64,000 bases of DNA from Candidatus Aenigmatarchaeota archaeon. GTDB lineage: Archaea; Aenigmatarchaeota; Aenigmatarchaeia; GW2011-AR5. The position numbers and the translations under genes were made by a program. The notes under the pieces are model-generated. The model made no database searches and was not told the DNA's origin. It saw only the letters and a program-made list of their open reading frames with translations. This document shows, in pieces, positions 23,439 to 63,282 of the stretch. Location: the NCBI GenBank assembly GCA_016198685.1, contig JACQID010000004.1:117864-181863 (forward strand), written 5' to 3'. How positions within the stretch are numbered: the stretch's first letter is position 1; every line of letters starts with the position of its first letter.

Positions 23439-25013
23439 TTATTTGGCGTTTTCAGCGAACCTCATGGATCTTTTTTTCCTGTTGTAGGTGACAGCAAACC
23501 TATGCGTCTCGTCTCTTATTGATCTTACGAGAAGCATCATCGAAGAGTTCTTGGGAAAGCGCATGGGTATCTCGTTCTCCGGCGTGAAGATCTCTTCATC
23601 TTTTTTAGCAAGTGATATTATCGGTATTTTAAGACCGAGATCTTTCAATGCGCCAAGCGCGGAATTCAGCTGCCCCGGCCCGCCGTCTATGATTATAAGA
23701 TCCGGCATAGAGTCATTCTGGTCGCGGAGTCTGCGGTATCTCCTGTGCACCACTTCTTTCATGGCTGCAAAATCGTCACTTTTTCCGCTAAAGGTCTTTA
23801 TTTCAAACTTCCTATAACCCTGCTTATCCTTTGCGCCTTCGGTGAATCTCACCATTGAAGCGACAATGTAGTCATATCCAAGATTAGAGATATCAAAGCA
23901 TTCAATGATTCTTGGCAGTGAAGGCAAATTCAGCTTCTCTTGGAGTTCATTCAACGCCTTATTGCCTATTTTCAGCGCGGCATTCTTTTCTGCAATGGCT
24001 ACAAGTGCCATGTTTTCTTTTGTTTCCGGCGGAAGAAGTCTTATGCTTCTTCCTGACAATTTTTCAAAATATGATTGAAGCGTCTCATCGTCCCAGAATT
24101 TCCTGTTGACTATTATCTCATCGGGGATTTCATTACTAAGATAGTAGGTTTTTATGAAATTCTCAAAGACCTCATTTTCAGATTCTTCAAAATGAGGCGT
24201 TATCATGTACTCATTTTTTCCCGAAATAACGCCGCGCTTTATATAAAATACCTCGAAGATGAAGCGTTCCCCGTCTTGAATACCGGCAATGACGTCCTGA
24301 TCGACCTTTTTGGCGATATTTATTTTCCGTTTTCCTGATACCCTGTCTATTATCTCTATCTGGCGTCTTTTTTCCAGGGCAAGCTCATACTTCATGGATT
24401 GGGAAGATGCTTTAAGTTCTTCATTGAGCTTGTTTCTCAAAGGCGATGTATCCCCGGAAAGAAATTCTATGGCATGACGAACCTGGTCTAGATATTGTTC
24501 ATGGCTGACCAGTTTGATGCATGGAGCTGTGCAGATTCCGATATAATAGTTAAGGCATGCTTTTCTTGGCAGTTTTTTGCAGGTGCGAAGCCGTAATGAC
24601 TTGACCAGAAGCTCTATTGTATCATCTCTTAGCCTTGAATCAATATACGGGCCGAAATAAGTTCCGTCTCCCTTGGCGTTCCTTGATATCATAACGCGCG
24701 GAAATTTTTCGTTGGTTATCTTGATATAAGCGTAGGTCTTTGAATCCTTGAGGGATATGTTATATTTCGGCCAGTGCTTTTTTATAAGCTGGTTCTCAAG
24801 AAGCAGAGCTTCAGTCTCGTTATTGACGACTATGAATTCTATGTCGTTTATTTTATGCACAAGTGCCTGAGTTTTTGCATTTTTCTTCCCTGAAAAATAA
24901 GATAAGACCCGCTTTTTAAGTATCTTGGCTTTGCCTATGTAGATTATTTTCCCAGACGAGTCCTTGAACAGGTAAACTCCGGGGTCATCCGGAACGTTCG
25001 GTATCATAATCAT
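23439..25013 (-). CDS. uvrC: excinuclease ABC subunit C (no C-terminal HhH region)
   Basis: GIY-YIG N-terminus GVYLFKDSSGKIIYIGKAKILKKRV ... ENQLIKKHWPKYNI. 524 aa. Stop is 3 nt before uvrA start. Confidence 0.85.
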   Translation of the reverse strand: MIMIPNVPDDPGVYLFKDSSGKIIYIGKAKILKKRVLSYFSGKKNAKTQALVHKINDIEFIVVNNETEALLLENQLIKKHWPKYNISLKDSKTYAYIKITNEKFPRVMISRNAKGDGTYFGPYIDSRLRDDTIELLVKSLRLRTCKKLPRKACLNYYIGICTAPCIKLVSHEQYLDQVRHAIEFLSGDTSPLRNKLNEELKASSQSMKYELALEKRRQIEIIDRVSGKRKINIAKKVDQDVIAGIQDGERFIFEVFYIKRGVISGKNEYMITPHFEESENEVFENFIKTYYLSNEIPDEIIVNRKFWDDETLQSYFEKLSGRSIRLLPPETKENMALVAIAEKNAALKIGNKALNELQEKLNLPSLPRIIECFDISNLGYDYIVASMVRFTEGAKDKQGYRKFEIKTFSGKSDDFAAMKEVVHRRYRRLRDQNDSMPDLIIIDGGPGQLNSALGALKDLGLKIPIISLAKKDEEIFTPENEIPMRFPKNSSMMLLVRSIRDETHRFAVTYNRKKRSMRFAENAK

Positions 25014-25016
25014 GAT

Positions 25017-27866
25017 TTAGAGCATTCGCTTTAAAAATTGGCCAGTATAAGACGCAGGTTCCATGGCAACTTCTTCCGGCGTTCCCATGGCTATTATTCT
25101 TCCTCCATCTCTTCCGCCTTCCGGGCCCATGTCTATCAGGTAATCGCAGGATTTTACGATATCAAGATTATGCTCGATGACAAGCACGCTGCTTCCTTTT
25201 TCAACCAGCCTATTGAGTACCATTATGAGCTTTCTTACATCCTCAAAATGCAATCCGGTGGTGGGTTCATCAAGCATATAGATCGTATCCCCTGTTTTTT
25301 GCTTTGATAGTTCTCTTGTCAGTTTTATTCTCTGCGCTTCGCCTCCTGAAAGCGTATTGGAGCTTTGCCCTAGCTTGATGTATCCCAGACCAACGTCGTA
25401 TAATGTCTTTATTTTTCTCGACATACCCGTGTGATTTTCAAAGAATTTCGTGGCGTCTTCAACGCTCATGTCAAGAACATCAGATATGTTTTTTTCTTTG
25501 TAGGTGATTGCAAGAGTCTCCTTGTTGTACCGTTTGCCTTTGCAGTCTTCACATTGCACATAAACATCGGGTAAAAAGTTCATTTCTATTTTTATTACGC
25601 CGTCCCCTTTGCAGCTCTCGCAGCGCCCGCCTTTGACATTGAAGGAGAATCTCCCTTCTTTGTATCCTTTGGCGCGGGCGTCTTTGGTGGAAGAAAAAAT
25701 CTTTCGGATTTCATCGAATATTTTGGTATAAGTAGCTGGATTGGATCTCGGTGTTTTTCCTATAGGATCTTGGTCTATGACTATCACATTTTTGACCGAT
25801 TTCGGGATTTCTATGCCGTTGTTTTTCCCTATTTTCTCGGCGATCATGCCGGCATGCTTCTTCAGTAAGGGAACAAGCGTCTGGTTTATCAGGGTCGATT
25901 TTCCGGATCCTGATACACCCGTTATTCCGCAAAGCACGCCTGTCGGCAACGAAACGTATATGTTTTTCAGATTATTCTCGGAAGCGCCTTTTACAACTAT
26001 GAAGTCTTTTGGTTCTCTTCTGTGCTCTGGTATCTCTATTTTTGTATGTCCTGAAAGGTAGCGGCCGGTTATGCTGTTCTTGTCTTTGGCTATATCATCA
26101 GGTGTTCCCTGTGAGGCAACATGACCTCCATGCACGCCTGCGCCGGGTCCCATGTCAATTATATAATCCGCGGCCTTTATCGTGTCGTAATCGTGTTCGA
26201 CAACTATGAGCGTATTTCCTATGTCCCTGAGCCTCTGAAGGGTTGCAATAAGCTTGTTATTGTCCCTTTGATGCAGCCCTATGGAGGGCTCATCAAGAAT
26301 GTAAAGAACGCCCATGAGGTTCGATCCTATCTGCGTTGCAAGACGTATTCGCTGCGCTTCGCCGCCCGATAGGGTCTTTGAGCTTCTCGAAAGCGACAGG
26401 TAGCCAAGGCCTACGTTTGTAAGAAAGCTGATTCTGTCATTGATTTCCTTGAGTATCTGCTTTGATATTATCTTGTCTTTTTCCGAAAGGCTCTCTGCAA
26501 GATGGATGAAAAATTTGGCGCAAGCATCCAGGTCCATCTCCGTAATGTCAATTATGGATTTTCCTGCTATGCTGACCGAAAGCACGGTTTCCTTGAGCCT
26601 CTTTCCTTCGCATACGCGGCATAGCTTCCCTATCATGAATCTTTCAAGGTCTTCCTTTCTTTCGTCGGATTCTGTCTGTTTGTACAGTCTTAGCGTTTGG
26701 GGTATTATTCCTTCCCAGCCGTTTTCCATGTTCATTGAAGCGCCGTTGCTCCATCTGCCGTCTATTCTTTCAGTCGTTCCATTAAGAAGTACATCGAGTT
26801 GTTTTTTTGAAAATGCAGATATGGGGGTGAAAATGTCGAATCCGAATTTTTTCCCGACAACAGCAATCTGCTGGCATCTCCATTGCAAATCCATTCTCCC
26901 ATAGACCGCAATGGTGCCATCAATGATAGATTTGCTTTTATCCGGAATCAAGAGATCCTGCGATATTTCCAGCGTTTCTCCGAGGCCCAAGCACCCCGCG
27001 CACGCGCCGAAAGGGGAATTAAATGAGAACATTCTGGGTTCTAGCTGCTGGAACAAAACTTCAGGATGCTTGGGGCACGCGCCGAAAGTTGAATAGATTG
27101 TCTCACCTGCGCCTCGTTGTATCTCTTTTGTTTTCTTTTGTATTTTAGCCGGGTCAAGAATTATTACGGTTCCCTTGCCGGCATGCACCGCCTGCTCAAC
27201 GTCTTCCGATATTCTGGAGCGATTATCGTCGCTGGCCTCCAGCCTGTCCACAACCGCTTCTATCCAGTGCTTTTCATAGCGAGCTAATTTCATATTATCT
27301 TTTATCTCATCAAGCCTGCATATTTCTCCGTCAATGCGCACGCGGCTGAATCCGTCTGATAACATTCCTTCGAAAATTTTCTCATGGGCTCCTTTAACTC
27401 CGCTAATCAGCGGAGCAAGAATTATAATCTCCTTTTTTTCAGACATGATCAGGTTTACTATGTTTTCCACTGACTGCGGCCTGATTTGGGATTTGCACTT
27501 AGGGCAGTGTATTGTCCCTATGCGTGCAAATAGAAGCCTGAGATAATCATATATCTCAGTTACCGTGCCTACCGTTGATCTTGGGTTTTTTGAGGTCGTT
27601 TTTTGCTCTATGGATATTGCAGGCGAAAGCCCATCTATCAAATCTATGTCCGGTTTATTCATCAATCCCAAGAACTGGCGGGCATATGCAGAAAGTGATT
27701 CGACATACCTGCGCTGGCCTTCGGCATATATTGTGTCAAACGCCAAAGTAGACTTCCCCGAGCCTGACATGCCCGTTATTACGACAAGCTTGTTCCTTGG
27801 TATTTCCACGTTTATGTTCTTCAGGTTGTGTTCCCTTGCTCCTCTCACTACTATTTTATCCAGCAT
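25017..27866 (-). CDS. uvrA: excinuclease ABC subunit A
   Basis: Two ABC ATPase modules ([28 protein letters not shown] x2). Zn-finger cysteines. 949 aa. Confidence 0.95.
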
Positions 27867-27870
27867 AATA

Positions 27871-29793
27871 TCAATTCTTTATTGAACTCTCAAGTTCTTG
27901 CATCGCATCGCGCAGTTCTATGGCCCGCTCAAAATTAAGATTTTCCGCTGCAGTCCTCATCTCGGCTTCCAGCTCGATGATTTTTCTTTCAATATCAATT
28001 CTTGCCATGTGCTTGAATCCTTTTATTTTGCCGGGCTTGACTATGTTTTTGATGATCGTTTCAGGGGTTATGCCATGTTTTTTGTTATATGCCTGCTGCA
28101 TGCGCCTTCGTTCATCTGTTATCTTTACCGCCCGCCTTATCGAATCAGTCATCTGGTCGGCAAAAAGTATTACACGACCGTTTATGTTTCTTGCGGCCCT
28201 TCCTATGGTTTGGATCAGGCTCCTTTCGTTTCTTAAAAATCCTTCTTTGTCGGCATCCAGTATGCATACGAGCGAGACTTCTGGTATATCCAGTCCTTCT
28301 CGCAAAAGATTTATTCCGACAAGAATGTCAAACTCACCCGACCTAAGCTGCCGTATTATCTCTATCCTATCAAGGCTTTCGATATCGGAGTGCATGTACC
28401 GAACCTTCAGCCCTTCTTTTGCAAGATAATCTGTCAGATCCTCAGCCATCCTTTTTGTCAGTGTCGTGATAAGAATCCTTTCACCTTTTCCAATGGCTTT
28501 TCGCATTTCATTCACCATGTAAGGTATATGGTCTTTTATCGGCCTCACGGATACCTCCGGATCAATCAAGCCTGTCGGACGTATTATCAGGTTCACAACT
28601 TGCCCTGACATCTGCAGTTCATATTCGCCGGGAGTTGCTGAAACAAAGATTGTATGGCGGAAGTACTGCTCAAACTCCGGGAATTTAAGCGGGCGGTTGT
28701 CAAATGCGCATGGCAGTCTGAATCCAAAATCGACAAGATTCTTTTTGCGCGAATAATCCCCTTTATACATGGCTCTAGACTGGGGTAGTGTCTGATGGCT
28801 TTCATCTATTATCAGAAGAAAATCCTTCGGGAAATAATCAAGGAGAACAAATGGTGGTTGGCCCTTTTTGCGATTATCGAAATGCCTCGAATAATTTTCT
28901 ATTCCGCTGCAATAACCGACTTCTTTTATCATTTCTATGTCGTATTTGACGCGTTTTTCAAGCCGTTGTGCTTCAATGCCAGACAATTCCGGCAGTCTTT
29001 CTGCAAGCTCTTTTTTAATCTCTTCTATGGCGGCTTCATGCTTTTGTTCCGGCGTTGCAAACTGTTTTGCAGGAAAAATTGTTGCACTTTCGAGGACATT
29101 GATCACGCTTCCCGTTATGCCGTCCATCTCGGATATCTTATCAACAGCGTTTCCGAACAGCTCTATTCGTGCTATGTTATTCCCGTACGCCGGGATGATG
29201 TCTATTACGTCGCCCCTTGCGCGGAATTTTCCCGGCTCAAGGTACTGATCGCTTCTTTCATACTGCATCTCTATCAATTTTCTTATCAAGTCATTTCTCG
29301 TAATCTTGTCGTTCTTTACCAGCGTAAGCGAGAGGCTCTTGAAGTCATCAGGATTGCCAAGGCCGTATATGCAGGATATTGAGGCGACAATTATAGTATC
29401 CGGCCTTGATATGAGGGAGGTCACGGCCTTCAGCCTCATTTTTTCTATCTGTTCGTTGATTGTCGCATCTTTCTCTATATACAAGTCGGTTGTGGGCACA
29501 TAACTCTCCGGCTGATAATAATCATAATATGAAATGAAATACTCCACGCAGTTTTTGGGAAACATTTCCTTAAGCTCTGCATATAGCTGAGCTGCGAGTG
29601 TTTTGTTGTGTGCAAGTACAAGGGTAGGCTTTTGTATCCTGCCTATTAAATTAGCCATGACAAATGTCTTCCCGCTTCCCGTTATGCCGAGCAATGTCTG
29701 CATGGGGTATTTTCCGTAGCCTTCGTGAAGCTTTTCTATGGCCTCTGGCTGCCCTCCTGCCGGCTTGAACGGCGAGTGCAGTTCGAATTTCAT
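27871..29793 (-). CDS. uvrB: excinuclease ABC subunit B
   Basis: Start moved to ATG 29793 ([22 protein letters not shown]). Helicase motifs GITGSGKT and DESH. Confidence 0.95.
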
Positions 29794-29858
29794 GCGATCG
29801 CAATAATATAAAATATAATTAAGCTTAAACGTCGATTCGGGACAATAATGCAAGGAAC

Positions 29859-30320
29859 TTACAGCCTGCCCATTTCCCGCATTATCTCTTCGTCCAGAGC
29901 GGCGCTTTTCTTTCGTGTGAGTTTGGATGCCATATCATCCAGTTCCTTTTCGTCAGTCTGCTTCCTTGGGTAGCTTATGACAACGCTGTCACCCTGGTTT
30001 CTTGGTATGACATGAAAATGTACATGGCTCACTATCTGGCCTGCAGCCTTGCCGTTGTTTTGGACTATGTTCACGCCCTGGCAGCCTGTCCTCTCCTTGA
30101 TCATTGATGTGACCTTCTTGACTGCAACAATTGCACCCTTCAAGCTCTCGTCATCAGCGTCAAAAATATTCTCAGAATGCCTTTTTGGCACAACGAGGGT
30201 ATGCCCCGGATTTGCGGGGTTTATGTCAAGAAATCCGACGCTAGAAGCGTCTTCATAGATCTTTTTTGATGGTATCTCGCCGCTAATAATCTTGCAAAAC
30301 AGGCAATCCATCTGTACCAT
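29859..30320 (-). CDS. HIT (histidine triad) family hydrolase
   Basis: HVHFHVIPR triad. N-terminus CLFCKIISGEIPSKKIYED. Confidence 0.85.
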   Translation of the reverse strand: MVQMDCLFCKIISGEIPSKKIYEDASSVGFLDINPANPGHTLVVPKRHSENIFDADDESLKGAIVAVKKVTSMIKERTGCQGVNIVQNNGKAAGQIVSHVHFHVIPRNQGDSVVISYPRKQTDEKELDDMASKLTRKKSAALDEEIMREMGRL

Positions 30321-30557: not shown

Positions 30558-30854
30558 TCAGATGATGGCTGGCAGCGTGAAGAAGATTGTCGCAAAGACG
30601 GATATCGTTGTCATGACTGCAAAGATTATCTTGAATGCGTTCTCATGATACTTGGCCATTTCGGTGCCTGCAAGAAGCATGATCATAGGTGCAAGAGGCG
30701 CAAATATGAGAAGAAGATAAACGTAAAACTCGGCGTAAGGGGTAAGCACGGGGAATGCCGGCAGAATAAAATAGAATATATTGATTATCAAAACGATGAA
30801 ATAAGACGTGCTTACTGCCAAAAATTTAGGCGAAAGCCCTTCAGGAATGTTCAT
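30558..30854 (-). CDS. small polytopic membrane protein, hypothetical
   Basis: 98 aa, hydrophobic. ATG overlaps the stop of the upstream paralog A (ATGA). The opposite-strand ORF 30516..30911 is judged antisense. Confidence 0.4.
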   Translation of the reverse strand: MNIPEGLSPKFLAVSTSYFIVLIINIFYFILPAFPVLTPYAEFYVYLLLIFAPLAPMIMLLAGTEMAKYHENAFKIIFAVMTTISVFATIFFTLPAII

Positions 30855-31837
30855 TTGACTTCACCAATGAATTTTTCAAAGTTGCTCCAGCGTGCCTTCT
30901 GTGATGCATAATAAATGACATCCTGTATCAATTTCATCGAAGTTTTCGGGTACATCTCGTTGAGAAATGCCGAAGTCTCGAACATTATAGCGTTTCCTCC
31001 CGTCTTTTCTAGCATTTTTTTCACGTTTCCGTCTCCTCTTTTGCCGGTAAAGGATTTCTGGTAGGTCATCCGGAATTCCGTGGCTTCTATGCTTTCTTCA
31101 AGCATCTTTTCATATTTGTCCCAATTCAGGCCCTTTTCCATGTCCTCGGCATTCCTGCCAAGTATCCTTGCAGCGTTTGCTATATCCCTTTTAACGTCGT
31201 TCCTGTAGCTTCCCTGCATGGCTCTCAGGTTAAACTTCTTGAACCTGTAACCTATGCTTCTTCTGAGCCAATTGCCGGCCCATGACACGGCATACGCCTT
31301 CATGTGGTTTTTTATATGGACAAGCCTCTCTGCGTTTTTCTTGTTGGCTTTCTCAACAGCTTCCTTCACGACATTCTCGTTGAACCATTTTCCGCCATTT
31401 GTGCAAACATCGAGTATTGACGGGAAGTTCTTGAGACGCATTGCCTGGGCATGGATGATAACGTATAAGGGCGTTTTTGGAGCGAGTGTTTCAGCTGCCA
31501 TCCAGAAATGGTTGTGGACATTGACCTTTTCGAGATATTCTTCCTGATCCTGAGAATAGAAAGCATATTTTTTCTCAAAAAGCATCCTTTTCTTGTAATT
31601 ATCTGCGCCTTTGAACATCTGAAGCGCCTCGTCCATATTGGCCGGTTTCCTGAAAAAATCAACGCCATATCGGCCTGCGCGCGGAACCGTGCAGATGATG
31701 CCCAGACTGCCCATGCGTTTTGTGAGCATTGATGTAATGAATTCACATCCTGCATCCCCTCGCATAACCGGAGATAGCGTAGTTGTCGCATGCGGTGCTA
31801 TGAAGACAGGGCCTGAATTATTGTTCTTGAGAAGCAT
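30851..31837 (-). CDS. paralog A of a three-member hydrolase-like family (possibly N-formylglutamate amidohydrolase/Zn-carboxypeptidase-like)
   Basis: Start placed at ATG 31837, preceded by SD AAGGAGGG. Motif GPVFIAPHATTT is shared with paralogs B and C. The track ORF begins at TTG 31873. Confidence 0.5.
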   Translation of the reverse strand: MLLKNNNSGPVFIAPHATTTLSPVMRGDAGCEFITSMLTKRMGSLGIICTVPRAGRYGVDFFRKPANMDEALQMFKGADNYKKRMLFEKKYAFYSQDQEEYLEKVNVHNHFWMAAETLAPKTPLYVIIHAQAMRLKNFPSILDVCTNGGKWFNENVVKEAVEKANKKNAERLVHIKNHMKAYAVSWAGNWLRRSIGYRFKKFNLRAMQGSYRNDVKRDIANAARILGRNAEDMEKGLNWDKYEKMLEESIEATEFRMTYQKSFTGKRGDGNVKKMLEKTGGNAIMFETSAFLNEMYPKTSMKLIQDVIYYASQKARWSNFEKFIGEVK

Positions 31838-31874
31838 GAAGCCCTCCTTGTAGTATGCACGCATTTGAATCAAG

Positions 31875-31882
31875 TTATTTAT
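31875..31882. promoter_or_regulatory. shared TATA-like element between divergent paralogs A and B
   Basis: TTATTTAT lies ~21 nt upstream of the B ATG at 31900 and ~41 nt upstream of the A ATG at 31837 (A has an SD). Confidence 0.35.
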
Positions 31883-31899
31883 GGCCGTCCGAGGATAAA

Positions 31900-32853
31900 A
31901 TGTTTATGCTCTCATTCCGTTATATGCCCGGCTTCAACATCATAGAAAGTGGAAAACCGGGGCCTATATTCGTTGCTCCTCATTCTACCCTCACTTATCG
32001 TTCCGCTGAACGTGAAGATGTAGGCGCCGAGAACTTGGCATTTGCCGGCGTTGACATCATGGGAGGGTCGGCAATTATCTCATCTATTCCGCGTCACGGC
32101 ATGCTCGGCATAGACTACAACCGTAGCGTCCCAAAGAAGACCCAGCTCGTAAAGGACATGAGTTACATTAAGGGCAACGACAATCTGACTTTATATTACA
32201 AAAATTATGCGTGGATGGCCCAGAATCCGGCTCAGGATGCTTATAAGAAAAAAATATATTCCAGTTTCTGGAAAACCGCTGAAATGATGGGCAAACGACA
32301 CAAAAAACCTCTCTTTCTGTTTTGCCATACCTTAAGTTCAAGGATAAAGAACCTGCCTTCGGCAGTGGATCTCATAACAGGCCGGGGCACATGGTTCGAT
32401 AAAGGGAAACTAGAAAGGATGGTTGCCAAATTAAACAGAAAATACGATTTCGCCCAGTATCGGGAAGACTGGATTCTCGATATGAAATTCCATGCCATGA
32501 TGGAAAAAAAGATATTCGGGCGGCACTTCACATCAATCAAGGATTCGAAAGGCATGCGCAGGGAGTGGATGCTGCAGGATATAGAAAAGGCAAACAGGAT
32601 ATTAGGAAAAAAATTAGACATAAAGACAATTGATTTTCTCGAATATTACCGTGCGATAGAAGATGTAATGAAAAAGAGCGAGATAAAGATCACGGTCGAG
32701 AATGTATATTTCGGCGATACTGCAAGGCCTGTATCACGGCTTCTTGAAAGAACGAACGGCTCAGGACTCGAAGTCGAGGCGCAGTCGTTTTTGAACGAGA
32801 ATCATGCCGAAGACGTTGTCAAAATAATACAAGAACTTGTCCGGCAATTTTGA
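31900..32853 (+). CDS. paralog B of the hydrolase-like family
   Basis: GPIFVAPHSTLTY, PRHGMLGIDYNRSVP, RIKNLPSAVDLITGRGTWF and SFLNE align with paralog A. Start moved from 31855 to ATG 31900, which avoids a divergent start-codon overlap. Confidence 0.5.
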   Translation: MFMLSFRYMPGFNIIESGKPGPIFVAPHSTLTYRSAEREDVGAENLAFAGVDIMGGSAIISSIPRHGMLGIDYNRSVPKKTQLVKDMSYIKGNDNLTLYYKNYAWMAQNPAQDAYKKKIYSSFWKTAEMMGKRHKKPLFLFCHTLSSRIKNLPSAVDLITGRGTWFDKGKLERMVAKLNRKYDFAQYREDWILDMKFHAMMEKKIFGRHFTSIKDSKGMRREWMLQDIEKANRILGKKLDIKTIDFLEYYRAIEDVMKKSEIKITVENVYFGDTARPVSRLLERTNGSGLEVEAQSFLNENHAEDVVKIIQELVRQF

Positions 32854-32854
32854 A

Positions 32855-33319
32855 TCATCTGGGATCTATTGCATAGACTATATGGCCGGGCTCTCTCAGA
32901 TAAGTTCTCGTGTCTTCGGTGTTACTTGCTGCATTATAAATTCTTGATGTAATGAGGTTCGCGGCGTTTTTGTCCGTATAAGCGTTAAAATAGGCGTTTT
33001 TGCCATAAATAAGGGTTGTCAGATGCGCAGGAGCCCCGGCAGTCAATGAGTTGAGTTCTTCCCGTATTTTTGCTATGCGGGCATTCTTGTTTAAGAGAGG
33101 CAGTCTTTCCTGCCAGCTAACGCAATATACCCTAAAGAGCCCGATGTTTTGGAGTTCTTGCTCTTCAATTTCAGGATCTGGACCTGTATATCGGTATACG
33201 TTGCTGCCATAGCCATCCTGGTTTGGCATATGTACAGGAACCCAGTTTTCAGGATTATGATTCCATTCTGGCATTATGGCAAACAAAGGGCTGTCATCCT
33301 CGTTCCAGATTTCTACCAT
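32855..33319 (-). CDS. hypothetical protein
   Basis: Start at ATG 33319 (MVEIWNEDDSPLF...). TTTATAAAAAAT element ~28 nt upstream. Stop abuts the stop of paralog B tail-to-tail. Confidence 0.4.
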   Translation of the reverse strand: MVEIWNEDDSPLFAIMPEWNHNPENWVPVHMPNQDGYGSNVYRYTGPDPEIEEQELQNIGLFRVYCVSWQERLPLLNKNARIAKIREELNSLTAGAPAHLTTLIYGKNAYFNAYTDKNAANLITSRIYNAASNTEDTRTYLREPGHIVYAIDPR

Positions 33320-33371
33320 TATAATATTTGACAGAAATTTATAAAAAATAGTTAAATTTCCACAAATATAG

Positions 33372-34250
33372 CTATGCTTTTTCAGCCGTCTGCTTTTCAA
33401 CCCATTCTTCCGCACACTCAGCAAGAACCTGCGCCGCTATCTGGTAGCGCAATTTCGGCAAAGAAGGATGTTCTTTCATGACGCGTCCATGGCGGTTAAA
33501 TTCCACGTGAATTCCGAAGCGTATGTCACTGTTTTTTTCGTTGTATTCCTTGACGTGCCTATATAGGGTATAATTCTTGCTTCCGGTAAACAGGCTTTTG
33601 CTTACCTTTACGGTGATGTCTATCCTGACATTGCGTTCTTTCAGCCGCTCCTTGAGTCTCTTCACGAAGAATCTGCGGAAGGAGAAAGCATTCTTGCTGC
33701 CGCCAATATAAGATCTGTCGGGGCCGAACCCCAAAAGCACATCGGCTTGCCGGTGGGAATGCATGCCATGGTAAGAAAGTATTAGCTTAGGGTTCAGGGA
33801 CTCAATAGTTTTATGATAGAACTCAAAAATATGCATCAGGTTTTTGTTCGTACTGATTGGAATATGCGATTCCGTCTCCTCATGCCCTTCGTCTGCCATG
33901 AACGGCAAGACCCTTAACCTCATGCCTTCGGCATCGGAGGGCCTGGCTAAATCAAGCTCTGTTCTCAGAATTGTTGGTATTATGTACGCAGATTGGGAAT
34001 GCCATGCACCAAGTTTGGCTAGGGTTGCCGTATTCGCATCGCCTATTCCGATGTAGGCTTTCTTGCCGTGCTTAGGAGATTTTATTCGTGTAGTTTGCGC
34101 ATGCTCGGCAACAATGAGTATTTTGTTACGAGAATAGTCTTCCAGCGTCTGAAAGAGAAGGTTGTTGGCGTTCTGGGGCCTGAAATTAGACTCGAACGCG
34201 GAAAGGTCTTCTTCGCTTTTCAAAAGGTTGAGCGTTTTTATCTGCCCCAC
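33372..34250 (-). CDS. paralog C of the hydrolase-like family
   Basis: ILIVAEHAQTT and LILSYHGMHS. GTG start at 34250 with SD GAGGAG 5 nt upstream. Overlaps the stop of the upstream ATP-grasp gene. Confidence 0.5.
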   Translation of the reverse strand: MGQIKTLNLLKSEEDLSAFESNFRPQNANNLLFQTLEDYSRNKILIVAEHAQTTRIKSPKHGKKAYIGIGDANTATLAKLGAWHSQSAYIIPTILRTELDLARPSDAEGMRLRVLPFMADEGHEETESHIPISTNKNLMHIFEFYHKTIESLNPKLILSYHGMHSHRQADVLLGFGPDRSYIGGSKNAFSFRRFFVKRLKERLKERNVRIDITVKVSKSLFTGSKNYTLYRHVKEYNEKNSDIRFGIHVEFNRHGRVMKEHPSLPKLRYQIAAQVLAECAEEWVEKQTAEKA

Positions 34251-35161
34251 GTCATCTCCTCTACTGCCTTGAAAATAGGAGCTATCAGCCTGTCTTTCTT
34301 GGATATTTCCGCTTCATGTTTGACGTAATCCATCATCAATGCTGCAACGTTCGTTCCGGTTGCATGAGTTATGCCTTCAAAGTGCACGTTCACATTCGCC
34401 TCTATGACTACAGGCCCTTTCTTGCCTTCTATTATGTCTATCCCTGCTATGCCAAGACCCAATGCTTTAGCGCTGCGTATAGCAAGCTTTGTCATTTCTT
34501 GACTGAGTCTTATTTTCTTGCCGGTTCCGCCGGCGCCTATATTGGCCCGTCTTTCTCCTTTCTCGGCTATCCTTTTCATTGAAGCTGGCACATCGTGCCC
34601 GATTACAAGGGCTCTTATGTCTTCGCCCGGGTTGCCGACAAATTCCTCAAGCATTATGGGCTGCTTCATGCCTTCTATCGTATCGAGTATAGGCAAGGCC
34701 GAAGACGGGCTTTCTGCAAACATAACGCCCTTGCCTAATGAACCCTGCAGCAGCTTTATCACTACAGGATACTTCATGCTTTTGATTATAGGTTTCATGC
34801 CCTTTACCGTTGAACTAAGGTAGCTCAGGGGCGTTGGTATGCCGGCTTTCTCAAGCTTCAATAATGTAAGGAATTTGTCATGCGTTATTATTATAGATTC
34901 CGGCGTTATAGGCATATACGTTTTGCCTTCCAAAAGCTTGCATATCACATAACCGTAATTTCTATAGGTTCTCGGTATTCTGGGAAAGACGATATCGTAC
35001 GATGATAAAGGAGTGCCCTTGAGAAGAACAGGGTCGCCGTTCTGTATTCTTACGTCAGGTATCTGGGCATAAGTAACCTTCTCGAATCTTTTCTTCGCTT
35101 CTTCAAGAAGCCAAAGATCCTGAGGCTTCTTCTCCCTTGAGCCCAAGATACATATTTTCAT
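34238..35161 (-). CDS. RimK-type ATP-grasp ligase
   Basis: EDIRALVIG, RANIGAGGTGKKI and GIDIIEGKKGPVVIEANVN motifs. 307 aa. Confidence 0.75.
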   Translation of the reverse strand: MKICILGSREKKPQDLWLLEEAKKRFEKVTYAQIPDVRIQNGDPVLLKGTPLSSYDIVFPRIPRTYRNYGYVICKLLEGKTYMPITPESIIITHDKFLTLLKLEKAGIPTPLSYLSSTVKGMKPIIKSMKYPVVIKLLQGSLGKGVMFAESPSSALPILDTIEGMKQPIMLEEFVGNPGEDIRALVIGHDVPASMKRIAEKGERRANIGAGGTGKKIRLSQEMTKLAIRSAKALGLGIAGIDIIEGKKGPVVIEANVNVHFEGITHATGTNVAALMMDYVKHEAEISKKDRLIAPIFKAVEEMTWGR

Positions 35162-36009
35162 TGTTTCACTCCGAAAAGATCAAGTATGCGGCTGAGTATG
35201 CCTCTTGGGGTAATAGGCGTCTTGACATTAGCCTTGGCATATTCAAGCAAAGCCGTGAATACATCCTTGCCGGACAGTCTTTCTATGGTTGCAAAAGGAG
35301 GAGATAGTGAAAAAGATGCTACCGTGTCGCCGGCAAATGTGACAAACCCGTAGGCAGAACCCATTGTTTTTGTTGCCCGTATGGCTGCATCCTTAATGCC
35401 GGTTCCTACTCCAGTGCCTCTCATTTTGCCTTTGATTATCTCAACCGATGAAACGATATCGTTACCTACAACAAAACATCCGATAATCTTGTCAGAAACC
35501 GGCTTCCTTATCGTAATTCCCTGCCCGCTTTTTCTCAGCCGTATCATGGATTTCATGTGCCTTGCGTCTTCAATAAGTGATGAACGTTCGCCTATGGTAA
35601 CTCTTATGGGAAACTCAAGTTCCGGAAGTATTTGCTCTGCTGCGTTTTCGCTTATGGCATAATAAGTTTGAGGCAGCTCAAAACCCGCCTGCTTGAGCTT
35701 CATCGCGCCTACAAGCTTCTTTTGGTAGGCTAAGAGCCCATCAAGCCCATAAGGAATGTAAGTTGATGAGGCTTCAAGTGATGTCACGATCGAGAGAAAA
35801 AGATCGCTGTGCCTTGCTGAGGGGAAAGGCAGGACTGCTTCAAACTTGGCTATGTCATGGTCACCAAAAATAAGCCTTGTTTTGCCTTCCCCGCTTTCTA
35901 TCCTTATTTCATCTGCAGGCACATATACACATTCCTCAAAAATGCCCTCTGCCTTCTTGGTGAATGGGGATTCCTCCCTTGAATCCATACCTATGATTGC
36001 AATCCTCAT
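35158..36009 (-). CDS. second, divergent RimK-like ATP-grasp paralog (possibly non-catalytic)
   Basis: Same overall layout as 34238..35161 but degenerate nucleotide-binding motifs. ATGA overlap with the downstream gene. Confidence 0.5.
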   Translation of the reverse strand: MRIAIIGMDSREESPFTKKAEGIFEECVYVPADEIRIESGEGKTRLIFGDHDIAKFEAVLPFPSARHSDLFLSIVTSLEASSTYIPYGLDGLLAYQKKLVGAMKLKQAGFELPQTYYAISENAAEQILPELEFPIRVTIGERSSLIEDARHMKSMIRLRKSGQGITIRKPVSDKIIGCFVVGNDIVSSVEIIKGKMRGTGVGTGIKDAAIRATKTMGSAYGFVTFAGDTVASFSLSPPFATIERLSGKDVFTALLEYAKANVKTPITPRGILSRILDLFGVKQ

Positions 36010-36085: not shown

Positions 36086-36238
36086 TGGGGTCGGGAGGAT
36101 TTGAACCCCCATTAGCTGGTTTCTTCTAAATCATCGCCGCTTGCGCGGCTCTTAGCTCCAAAAGAGCCTCTCGGCCTGTCTTTTTACGGAAAGACCGGGA
36201 CTGGAGCCAGCGATCCTGCCTGGTTAGACTACAACCCC
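36086..36238 (-). tRNA. tRNA-Trp (CCA) with ~80-nt intron at canonical 37/38 position
   Basis: Acceptor GGGGTTG/CGACCCC. Anticodon stem GCTGG/CCAGC. Loop CTCCAG|A. T-arm GGGGGTTCAAATCCTCC. Intron contains hairpins GGCTCTT...AAGAGCC and GCCGC-GCAA-GCGGC. Confidence 0.75.
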
Positions 36239-62826: not shown

Positions 62827-62933
62827 TGGGCCCGACGGGATTCGAACCCGCGACAGTCGGCTTTCTGCGGGCCCGGTGCCCTGCTGGCACAGGCTTAAAA
62901 GGCCGATGCTCTACCAGGCTGAGCTACAGGCCC
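62827..62933 (-). tRNA. tRNA-Lys (UUU) with 33-nt intron at canonical 37/38 position
   Basis: GGGCCTG-TA-GCTCAGCCTGGTAGAGC-A-TCGGC-CTTTTA|intron|A-GCCGA-CTGTC-GCGGGTTCGAATCCCGT-CGGGCCC-A. All stems pair. Confidence 0.75.
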
Positions 62934-63164: not shown

Positions 63165-63282
63165 GGCCAGCAACGTTCTGGTGTTCCCGGCTTGTAGGCC
63201 AGTACTTGCCATGTCGCAGGAGAGCTTGACTTCCAAGTTCGGAATGGGTTTGGGTATCGCCTCTCCGCTATGATCGCCGACC
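63165..63282 (-). rRNA. 5S ribosomal RNA (solitary)
   Basis: GGTCGGCGATCATAGCGGAGAGG...CCCATTCCGAACTTGGAAGTCAAGCTCTCC...GTACTGG...GGGAACACCAGAACGTTGCTGGCC. Helix I pairs 5' GGTCGGC with 3' GCTGGCC. 118 nt. Confidence 0.8.

What the first reader, a model, noticed from the sequence alone, without database searches (positions are those of the whole stretch)
30558..36009. Cluster of three paralogous hydrolase-like genes plus two tandem RimK-type ATP-grasp ligases, headed by tRNA-Trp
Three paralogs sit within 3.4 kb. A and B are divergently paired and C is on the ATP-grasp strand. They share an N-terminal motif [IV]A[PE]HA[TQS]T (GPVFIAPHATTT, GPIFVAPHSTLTY, ILIVAEHAQTT), and A and B share further conserved blocks. 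The A-P/E-H-A-S/T pattern reminds me of N-formylglutamate amidohydrolase-like zinc hydrolases, but I cannot confirm the family by eye. On the same strand as C, with overlapping stops and starts, are two RimK-like ATP-grasp genes. The first has canonical motifs. The second is degenerate and possibly non-catalytic. A small polytopic membrane protein and a 154-aa hypothetical are embedded. An amide-bond ligase co-operonic with multiple amidohydrolase-like paralogs suggests a dedicated ligation/hydrolysis system for an amino-acid or gamma-glutamyl-type metabolite, or a peptide tag. I do not recognise it as any standard pathway. LysW/LysX is excluded because LysZ, LysY, LysJ and the carrier protein are absent.
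Basis: partly seen in the sequence, partly recalled or inferred. Interest (0 to 1): 0.7.

Follow-up and report, generated by a model that had tools for sequence, protein, structure and literature searches.

The report
Archaeal glutamate-ligase and amidohydrolase gene cluster
A small uncultured archaeon (Aenigmatarchaeota) keeps a conserved gene cluster that pairs a glutamate-adding enzyme and its inactive twin with three uncatalogued enzymes shaped like glutamate-removing hydrolases, which most likely forms an uncharacterised add-and-remove system for glutamate tags.

The parts
36086..36238 (-). tRNA-Trp(CCA) with an 80-nt intron, 76 nt upstream of AG2 on the same strand
   Evidence: Rfam RF00005 scores 39 bits. 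A tRNA-Trp lies next to the cluster in all 8 distinct loci where the upstream DNA is held. Whether it belongs functionally to the cluster is unknown.
35158..36009 (-). AG2: a degenerate RimK-like ATP-grasp paralog, 283 aa, predicted to be non-catalytic
   Evidence: No Pfam hit. TIGR00768 scores only 28.5 bits against a cut-off of 143.4. It is 23% identical to AG1, E 5e-13. A family profile matches Pseudomonas RimK 7qys end to end, E 5e-9. It has lost the ATP-binding Lys, the Gly-rich loop, the DIR Arg, the RxN..GG loop (12-aa deletion) and the D/E/N Mg ligands in all five lineages aligned. dN/dS is 0.058 against L016.
34238..35161 (-). AG1: intact RimK-family alpha-L-glutamate ligase, 307 aa
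   Evidence: Pfam RimK PF08443 matches 1-188/188, E 1.6e-40. TIGR00768 rimK_fam scores 188.3, above the cut-off of 143.4. The best solved relatives are Pseudomonas RimK 7qyr/7qys at 7e-41. All ATP/Mg motifs are present. It is below all equivalog cut-offs (LysX, RimK-S6, MptN, CofF).
33372..34250 (-). C: FGase-fold putative metallo-amidohydrolase, 292 aa, from a family with no Pfam or NCBIfam model
32855..33319 (-). 154-aa ORF in a hypervariable slot between C and B; doubtful member
   Evidence: No hit in Pfam, NCBIfam, PADLOC or PHROGs. No tblastn hit in 23 loci. The only relative is a weak match to the 157-aa ORF L016:5540-6013. Other genomes carry unrelated genes in this slot.
31900..32853 (+). 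B: paralog of A, about 317 aa, divergently transcribed from A, FGase-like
   Evidence: 27% identical to A, E 4e-43. It keeps every invariant residue of alignment A1. Orthologs occur in L002, L004, L005, L006, L008 and L016. The L004 ortholog gives a sub-threshold PF05013 FGase hit, E 0.018.
30851..31864 (-). A: FGase-fold putative metallo-amidohydrolase, 337 aa, with a helical insertion of about 100 residues
30558..30854 (-). Small membrane protein, 98 aa, three hydrophobic segments; its start overlaps the stop of A by 4 nt
   Evidence: Translation. Orthologs lie directly after A in L004, L005, L016, L018 and L019, and a similar 88-aa protein follows A in L002. dN/dS is 0.155.
29859..30320 (-). 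HIT-family hydrolase, a conserved downstream neighbour; membership uncertain
   Evidence: Pfam HIT scores 100 bits. It lies downstream of the cluster in L002-L009 and L016-L022. It is absent from that position in L001 and from the held parts of L010-L014.

Best explanation
This is a conserved archaeal (Aenigmatarchaeota/DPANN) module for making and breaking glutamyl amide bonds.

Proposed mechanism:
- AG1 is the catalytic RimK-type ATP-grasp ligase. It activates a carboxylate as an acyl-phosphate and joins the alpha-amino group of L-glutamate to it. The acceptor could be a protein or peptide C-terminus, a small acid, or a growing alpha-polyglutamate chain.
- AG2 is translationally coupled to AG1, has lost ATP/Mg binding and is under purifying selection. 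It probably acts as a non-catalytic partner, either a scaffold or a subunit that selects the acceptor.
- C, B and A are three cytosolic metal-dependent amidohydrolases of the N-formylglutamate-amidohydrolase fold. That enzyme type cleaves acyl-NH-Glu bonds, so they most likely trim or remove the added glutamates. This would give a writer/eraser cycle analogous to RimK/RimB in Pseudomonas or TTLL/CCP on tubulin.

Shown here: gene content, family and fold assignments, loss of catalytic motifs in AG2, conservation of the cluster, and purifying selection.
Inferred: enzymatic activities, metal dependence, AG1-AG2 partnership, glutamate as the amino acid, and the identity of the acceptor (unknown).
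For: 1. AG1 passes the curated RimK-family cut-off and has all ATP/Mg motifs.
2. AG2 is a full-length RimK homolog with every catalytic motif lost in five lineages, yet dN/dS is 0.058. It shares with AG1 a C-terminal extension that is absent from bacterial RimK.
3. A and C fold like FGase. The A/B and C families keep collinear invariant H..D..R..DxxR..H..D..E sets. This resembles the His/acid/His zinc site plus catalytic Glu described for the related polyglutamate hydrolases PghL/PghP, whose own closest non-family structures are 2odf and 2q7s (PMC6506827).
4. FGase chemistry (acyl-NH-Glu hydrolysis) is the reverse of RimK-family chemistry. This rests on established knowledge of EC 3.5.1.68 and RimK.
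5. Genes overlap at stops and starts. The order AG2-AG1-C-...-B/A recurs in about a dozen distinct loci, with AG1 identity down to 50-57% and with different flanks and insertions.
6. Distant A/B-family members (20-27% identity) sit next to an AG1 ortholog, a second partly degenerate ATP-grasp and a RimB-like aspartic protease (L011, L014). RimB removes glutamates from RimK-made polyglutamate tails (PMC11957791).
7. Several A/B invariants are basic (R38, R65, R75, K116, R146, K148). This fits an acidic substrate.
Against: - No acceptor protein or metabolite was identified. No small ORF with an acidic tail lies in the cluster or the window, and archaea lack the bacterial S6 target.
- A, B and C reach no sequence model of FGase, so hydrolase activity rests on fold plus conserved residues.
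- Why three hydrolases are needed is unexplained.
- Much of the co-occurrence comes from related MAGs in which neighbouring genes (HIT, PCNA, tRNA-Trp) are also syntenic, so part of the linkage could be inherited gene order.
- RimK-family enzymes do not all use glutamate or protein acceptors (LysX, MptN, CofF, NAAG synthetases).
Confidence: 0.55

Rival explanations
1. Polymer metabolism rather than tagging. AG1, with AG3 in some genomes, synthesises free poly-alpha-glutamate or a related anionic polyamide as a storage, osmoprotective or surface polymer. A, B and C depolymerise it, as cyanophycin synthetase works with cyanophycinase and CphZ, or Pgs with PghP. The small membrane protein would link the system to the envelope.
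Confidence: 0.2
2. A biosynthetic or salvage route for a small glutamate-containing metabolite or cofactor tail. This would resemble MptN, CofF or NAAG/beta-citrylglutamate synthetases, or an amino-group-carrier pathway like LysX/LysW. The FGase-like enzymes would act as deacylases that release or recycle the product.
For: AG1 scores substantially against LysX, MptN and CofF models (144, 123 and 49 bits), and all of these belong to the same RimK family. FGase itself acts on a small molecule, N-formylglutamate. A radical-SAM gene sits inside the cluster in L008/L009.
Against: AG1 is below every equivalog cut-off. No LysW, LysZ, LysY or LysJ and no methanopterin or F420 genes lie in or near the cluster in any locus. 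No LysW-like ORF is in the window. From general knowledge, DPANN archaea have little biosynthetic capacity. The RimB-like protease in distant relatives points to peptide substrates.
Confidence: 0.15
3. No joint function. The ligase pair and the three hydrolase-like genes are neighbours only through inherited gene order in a narrow lineage, and the hydrolase-like proteins act on unrelated substrates.
For: Flanking genes that are probably unrelated (HIT, PCNA, tRNA-Trp) are also conserved next to the cluster. Close relatives dominate the sample. B is on the opposite strand, and unrelated genes are inserted between C and B.
Against: Stop/start overlaps link AG2-AG1-C. The association survives insertions, inversions and changed flanks. 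It reappears in a different architecture with only 20-27% identical A/B members (L011, L014, L015). L001, L002 and L012 insert a third RimK-type ligase directly before A.
Confidence: 0.1

Closest known systems
RimK / RimB (RimABK) ribosomal protein S6 polyglutamylation system of Pseudomonas and E. coli
   Same: Both use a RimK-family ATP-grasp alpha-L-glutamate ligase; the best solved matches of AG1 are 7qyr/7qys at 7e-41. In both, the ligase is encoded with a hydrolase that removes the glutamates (PMC11957791). Distant relatives of the cluster (L011, L014) even carry a RimB-like PF05618 protease.
   Different: In the window the partner hydrolases are three FGase-fold putative metalloenzymes, not a retropepsin-like aspartic protease. 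There is an extra, obligatorily inactive ATP-grasp paralog. AG1 fails the S6-ligase equivalog cut-off (136.8 vs 331). The bacterial S6 target does not exist in archaea.
N-formylglutamate amidohydrolase family (HutG, Pfam PF05013; structures 2q7s and 2odf)
   Different: There is no sequence-level membership; the best hit is 15.6 bits against a cut-off of 28.9, in one B ortholog. A and B carry a helical insertion of about 100 residues. No histidine-utilisation genes are nearby.
TTLL glutamylases and CCP (M14) deglutamylases of eukaryotic tubulin
   Same: The logic is the same: ATP-grasp ligases add glutamates and several paralogous metallohydrolases of the carboxypeptidase-like fold remove them. 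CCP5 appears among the structural hits.
   Different: The ligase family differs (TTL against RimK) and so does the hydrolase family. The M14 HxxE motif is absent from A, B and C. This is an analogy only.
Poly-gamma-glutamate hydrolases PghP / PghL(YndL)
   Different: They are much shorter phage-derived enzymes that act on extracellular gamma-PGA. They have no sequence similarity to A, B or C, and no ATP-grasp partner.
LysX/LysW (ArgX) amino-group carrier protein pathway
   Same: It uses a RimK-family ATP-grasp ligase plus a downstream metallo-deacylase (LysK), as known from that pathway.
   Different: AG1 is below the LysX cut-off (144.5 vs 275.6). There is no LysW, LysZ, LysY or LysJ in any locus. 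The hydrolases are FGase-fold, not M20.

Membership tests
RimK family of alpha-L-glutamate ligases (TIGR00768 / PF08443): AG1 | Score above the curated family cut-off over the full length | tested here: met
   TIGR00768 scores 188.3 bits against a cut-off of 143.4, model positions 1-276/276. PF08443 scores 139 bits, 1-188/188.
RimK family: AG1 | ATP-grasp catalytic residues: ATP-binding Lys, Gly-rich loop, hinge Glu, DIR Arg, RxN..GG loop, and the D/E/N Mg ligands | tested here: met
   The alignment with Pseudomonas RimK 7qys shows VVIKL, QGSLGKGV, EEFV, DIRALV, ERRANIGAGG and GIDII...IEANVN.
RimK family: AG2 | Curated cut-off and catalytic residues | tested here: not met
   TIGR00768 scores 28.5 against 143.4, and there is no Pfam hit. 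All catalytic motifs are replaced or deleted. AG2 is homologous to RimK (profile against 7qys, E 5e-9, full length), so it is a degenerate relative and not a functional member.
Ribosomal protein S6--L-glutamate ligase RimK (NF007764 equivalog) | Equivalog cut-off of 331 bits | tested here: not met
   AG1 scores 136.8 bits.
LysX (TIGR02144), MptN (NF040720), CofF (TIGR04443) | Equivalog cut-offs, and presence of the known operon partners | tested here: not met
   Scores are 144.5 against 275.6, 123.4 against 350, and 49.4 against 300. No LysW/Z/Y/J or cofactor genes are in any of the loci. No LysW-like ORF is in the window.
N-formylglutamate amidohydrolase family (Pfam PF05013): A, B, C | Sequence match above the gathering score of 28.9 bits | tested here: not met
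   A, B and C give no hit. None of 40 A/B-family members hits PF05013. The best is the L004 B ortholog at 15.6 bits, E 0.018. Profiles find no FGase among PDB sequences.
N-formylglutamate amidohydrolase family: A and C | FGase three-dimensional fold | tested here: met
N-formylglutamate amidohydrolase family: A, B, C | Conserved metal-binding and catalytic residues placed together in the active site | tested here: inconclusive
   Invariant H/D/H/E plus R..DxxR sets are found in both families, in the same order. Their equivalence to FGase residues and their spatial clustering could not be checked: model coordinates and residue-level structural alignments were not available.
N-formylglutamate amidohydrolase family: A, B, C | Hydrolysis of N-acyl-L-glutamate | not testable with these tools
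   This needs an enzyme assay.
M14 metallocarboxypeptidases | HxxE zinc motif and a Pfam Peptidase_M14 match | tested here: not met

The most novel reading that the evidence does not exclude
The cluster is a dedicated, reversible protein polyglutamylation system of DPANN archaea. A RimK-type writer would be steered by a pseudo-ligase subunit, and three previously unrecognised deglutamylase families of the FGase fold would act as erasers, possibly with distinct specificities for chain length or linkage. The target would be a component of the translation or replication apparatus. The unusually persistent linkage to tRNA-Trp, HIT and PCNA hints at this but does not prove it. It would be an archaeal counterpart of the bacterial RimABK system and of the eukaryotic TTLL/CCP 'glutamylation code'.
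Probability: 0.25. Interest if true: 0.8.

Novelty: new variant of a known kind. Interest (0 to 1): 0.58.

Why it matters
If the reading is right, the cluster would matter in five ways.

- It would define two uncatalogued families of glutamyl-amide hydrolases. Neither has a Pfam or NCBIfam model, and members are annotated 'hypothetical protein' where any name is given.
- It would be the first candidate glutamylation/deglutamylation system in archaea.
- It would provide a natural example of a ligase working with a conserved dead paralog.
- Aenigmatarchaeota are uncultured organisms with small genomes. Keeping five to six genes for this purpose under strong purifying selection implies an important role.
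- The proteins are small, soluble and predicted with confidence, so the hypothesis can be tested directly in vitro.

Tried and rejected
- Pfam, NCBIfam, PADLOC and PHROGs scans of A, B, C, the 154-aa ORF, the membrane protein and AG2 gave nothing meaningful. A defence-system or phage origin was rejected.
- Sequence searches of A, C and the profiles A1, A2 and A4 against PDB sequences gave only noise.
- hhalign of the A/B profile against the C profile gave no signal, so 'three paralogs' cannot be claimed from sequence.
- A Pfam scan of 40 A/B-family members and of the most distant HMM hits showed no transitive link to PF05013.
- LysW-type carrier: no small ORF with an acidic C-terminus was found in the window. 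The roughly 70-aa ORFs upstream of AG2 in L006 and L008 are unrelated to each other.
- Integrative element at tRNA-Trp: there is no second copy of the tRNA 3' end and no long repeats flanking the cluster. No integrase appears in any locus.
- The 327-aa gene of L005/L017 and the 154-aa ORF looked by eye as if they might carry a gamma-glutamylcyclotransferase-like 'YGSN' motif. No family model supports this.
- The AFDB fold library was unavailable.
- The amidoligase survey by Iyer et al. (2009) could not be retrieved.
- Literature searches for an archaeal RimK plus FGase cluster found nothing.

Full report
**What is there**

The ORF map shows the following on the minus strand, read 5' to 3':
- AG2, 35158-36009, 283 aa
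- AG1, 34238-35161, 307 aa
- C, 33372-34250, 292 aa
- a 154-aa ORF, 32855-33319
- A, 30851-31864, 337 aa from the ATG that matches all homologs
- a 98-aa protein with three hydrophobic segments, 30558-30854

B lies on the plus strand at 31900-32853 (317 aa from the start shared with its orthologs). It is divergent from A across about 35 bp.

AG2/AG1, AG1/C and A/membrane gene overlap by 4, 13 and 4 nt. Default ARAGORN finds no tRNA.

Flanking genes are HIT and UvrB on one side, and a membrane protein, a Na+/H+ exchanger and an epimerase on the other. Protein C is 100% identical to a 'hypothetical protein' of a Candidatus Aenigmarchaeota MAG. All eight close loci found in species-representative genomes are Aenigmatarchaeota or unclassified archaeal MAGs.

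**The ligases**

AG1 is a bona fide RimK-family enzyme.
- PF08443 matches end to end, E 1.6e-40.
- TIGR00768 scores 188.3 bits against a cut-off of 143.4.
- Its best solved relatives are the Pseudomonas RimK structures 7qyr/7qys (7e-41) and E. coli RimK.
- It falls well short of the equivalog cut-offs for RimK-S6, LysX, MptN and CofF, so it is not an ortholog of any characterised subfamily.

AG2 is a divergent paralog.
- It is 23% identical to AG1, E 5e-13.
- A profile of five orthologs matches RimK 7qys over its full length, E 5e-9.
- An alignment with RimK shows that AG2 has lost the ATP-binding Lys, the Gly-rich loop, the hinge Glu and the DIR Arg. The RxN..GG loop is removed by a 12-residue deletion. 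All three Mg ligands are replaced (D/E/N become T/S/S).
- The same losses occur in five lineages that are only 32-42% identical to the window copy.
- The gene is nevertheless under purifying selection: dN/dS is 0.058 against L016, compared with 0.040 for AG1.

AG2 is therefore a maintained pseudoenzyme, not a decaying gene.

**The hydrolase-like proteins**

- A and B are paralogs (27% identity, E 4e-43).
- C shows no sequence similarity to either.
- None of the three hits Pfam or NCBIfam.

- Next come M14 carboxypeptidases, Csd4, the polyglutamate hydrolases PghP and YndL/PghL, and CCP5.

Foldseek agrees for C.

Family alignments give collinear invariant sets.
- A/B family, 40 sequences at about 20-27% identity: H28, D40, R65, D72, R75, H141, D155, E299. 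R65 and D72 are conserved in at least 90% of sequences; the others are invariant.
- C family, 26 sequences: H50, D71, R96, D100, R103, H161, D170, E250. R103 is conserved in at least 90% of sequences; the others are invariant.

This pattern is H..D..R..DxxR..H..D..E. It resembles the His/acid/His zinc site plus catalytic Glu documented for PghL/PghP. The PghL authors note that 2odf and 2q7s are that enzyme's nearest structural neighbours outside its own family (PMC6506827).

I infer that A, B and C are active metal-dependent amidohydrolases that act on a glutamyl amide.

Both families are rare. The A/B family has 71 representatives at E<=1e-3 among 1.84 billion cluster representatives. The C family has 26 proteins among 5.8 billion.

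**Conservation**

The order AG2-AG1-C-[variable slot]-B-A-(membrane protein)-HIT recurs in L001-L010, L012-L013 and L016-L023, some of them partial (mapped). AG1 identity falls to 50-57%. The flanks differ, and insertions occur: a radical-SAM gene plus TrmB, and a HEPN/NTase pair, in L008/L009.

L001, L002 and L012 add a third, catalytically intact RimK-type ligase (AG3) directly before A.

The slot between C and B is hypervariable:
- the 154-aa ORF in the window
- a weakly related 157-aa ORF plus a CapA-like PGA_cap gene in L016
- an unrelated 327-aa gene in L005/L017

The 154-aa ORF is therefore not a core component.

The most informative loci carry distant A/B-family members at 20-27% identity.
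- In L011 and L014 the member lies next to a RimB-like aspartic protease (PF05618), an AG1 ortholog (39-41% identity) and a second, partly degenerate ATP-grasp.
- In L015 two A/B-like genes flank a 450-aa ATP-grasp.

RimB is the protease that removes glutamates from RimK-made polyglutamate tails and stimulates RimK (PMC11957791). The link between the A/B family and RimK-type ligase pairs thus survives a complete change of architecture. It also associates the family with a known polyglutamate-specific peptidase.

**Interpretation**

RimK-family ligases form acyl-NH-Glu bonds, and FGase-type enzymes hydrolyse acyl-NH-Glu bonds. With the operon structure and the conservation, the best explanation is a glutamylation/deglutamylation module:
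- AG1 is the writer.
- AG2 is a non-catalytic partner.
- A, B and C are erasers or trimmers.

The acceptor is unknown. No LysW-like or acidic-tailed small ORF is in the window, and the small ORFs upstream of AG2 in other loci are not conserved.

Rival readings:
- Free polyglutamate-type polymer turnover. Support comes from the PGA_cap gene of L016, the PghP-like neighbours and the coupled membrane protein.
- A small-metabolite or cofactor pathway.
- Mere synteny.

Defence-system, phage and integrative-element readings were tested and rejected.

**Novelty**

Literature searches found no description of a RimK plus FGase-like cluster, and no archaeal polyglutamylation system. The parts belong to known superfamilies and the logic parallels RimK/RimB and TTLL/CCP. 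I therefore rate it a new variant of a known kind, with two uncatalogued hydrolase families and a conserved pseudo-ligase as the new elements.

**Unexplained**

A tRNA-Trp gene lies beside the cluster in every one of the eight distinct loci where the upstream DNA is held, although the genes beyond it differ. In three of those loci it is on the opposite strand. It is also 1.4 kb upstream of the RimB-type cluster in L011.

Noticed in passing
window 36086-36238(-); L002 6068-6179, L004 1600-1756(-), L005 47-200, L006 5744-5814, L008 5620-5690, L011 6506-6620, L016 2601-2755, L018 2197-2355(-): A tRNA-Trp(CCA) gene lies next to the cluster in all 8 distinct loci with upstream sequence, and 1.4 kb from the RimB-type cluster of L011. 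The genes beyond the tRNA differ between loci, and in L004 and L018 the tRNA is inverted. No att-like repeat was found in the window. The linkage persists more than the surrounding synteny does, and it is unexplained.
   Followed up: partly
window 36086-36238(-), intron of about 80 nt; alignment A6: The length of the tRNA-Trp intron varies by lineage: 80-86 nt in close relatives, 41-42 nt in L002 and L011, none in L006-L009. A conserved block CTGGAGC..GAGCC..GGCGATGA includes a stretch complementary to the anticodon arm (GCTCCAG). This may be the bulge-helix-bulge pairing and/or a C/D-box-like guide of the kind known from other archaeal tRNA-Trp introns. It was not tested with a model.
   Followed up: partly
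L016 5976-6986(+): The closest relative of the window cluster (92-94% identical proteins) carries a CapA-like PGA_cap gene between C and B (PF09587, 222 bits; the family is annotated as poly-gamma-glutamate capsule synthesis). It is absent from the window and from all other loci.
   Followed up: partly
window 32855-33371; L005 3770-4753; L008 9262-10974; L016 5540-6986: The interval between C and B is a hypervariable insertion slot that holds unrelated genes in different genomes: the 154-aa ORF, a 327-aa unknown, a radical-SAM gene plus TrmB, or a 157-aa ORF plus CapA-like gene.
   Followed up: partly
L002 5357-6019(+): A GGDEF-domain protein is encoded upstream of AG2 on the same strand, with the tRNA-Trp gene between them. 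This recalls the c-di-GMP control of RimK by RimA in Pseudomonas. GGDEF genes are uncommon in archaea. It was seen in one lineage only.
   Followed up: no
L014 5899-6609(-); L011 9020-9379(+): The RimB-like protease of L014 is a tandem duplication (236 aa, two D-T-G-A motifs) of the single-domain 119-aa form in L011. It is a pepsin-like single-chain version of a retropepsin-like dimer.
   Followed up: partly
L015 128-1048(+), 1035-2387(-), 2417-3457(-); L014 7001-9260: In another lineage two A/B-like genes flank a 450-aa ATP-grasp_3 protein. This is a third architecture that links the family to ATP-grasp ligases.
   Followed up: no
window 29859-30320(-): A HIT-family hydrolase gene follows the cluster in nearly all Aenigmatarchaeota loci, often followed in turn by PCNA. 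Whether this is functional linkage or inherited synteny is open.
   Followed up: partly
window 62827-62933(-) and 63165-63281(-): A second tRNA lies next to a 5S rRNA gene. The tRNA spans 107 nt, so it probably contains an intron; default ARAGORN missed it.
   Followed up: no
window 23439-29853(-): A bacterial-type UvrB gene (Pfam-confirmed) is followed by large ORFs of 949 and 524 aa. By comparison with L005 these are probably UvrA and UvrC, which would make a complete bacterial-type excision-repair operon in a DPANN archaeon. Only UvrB was checked.
   Followed up: no
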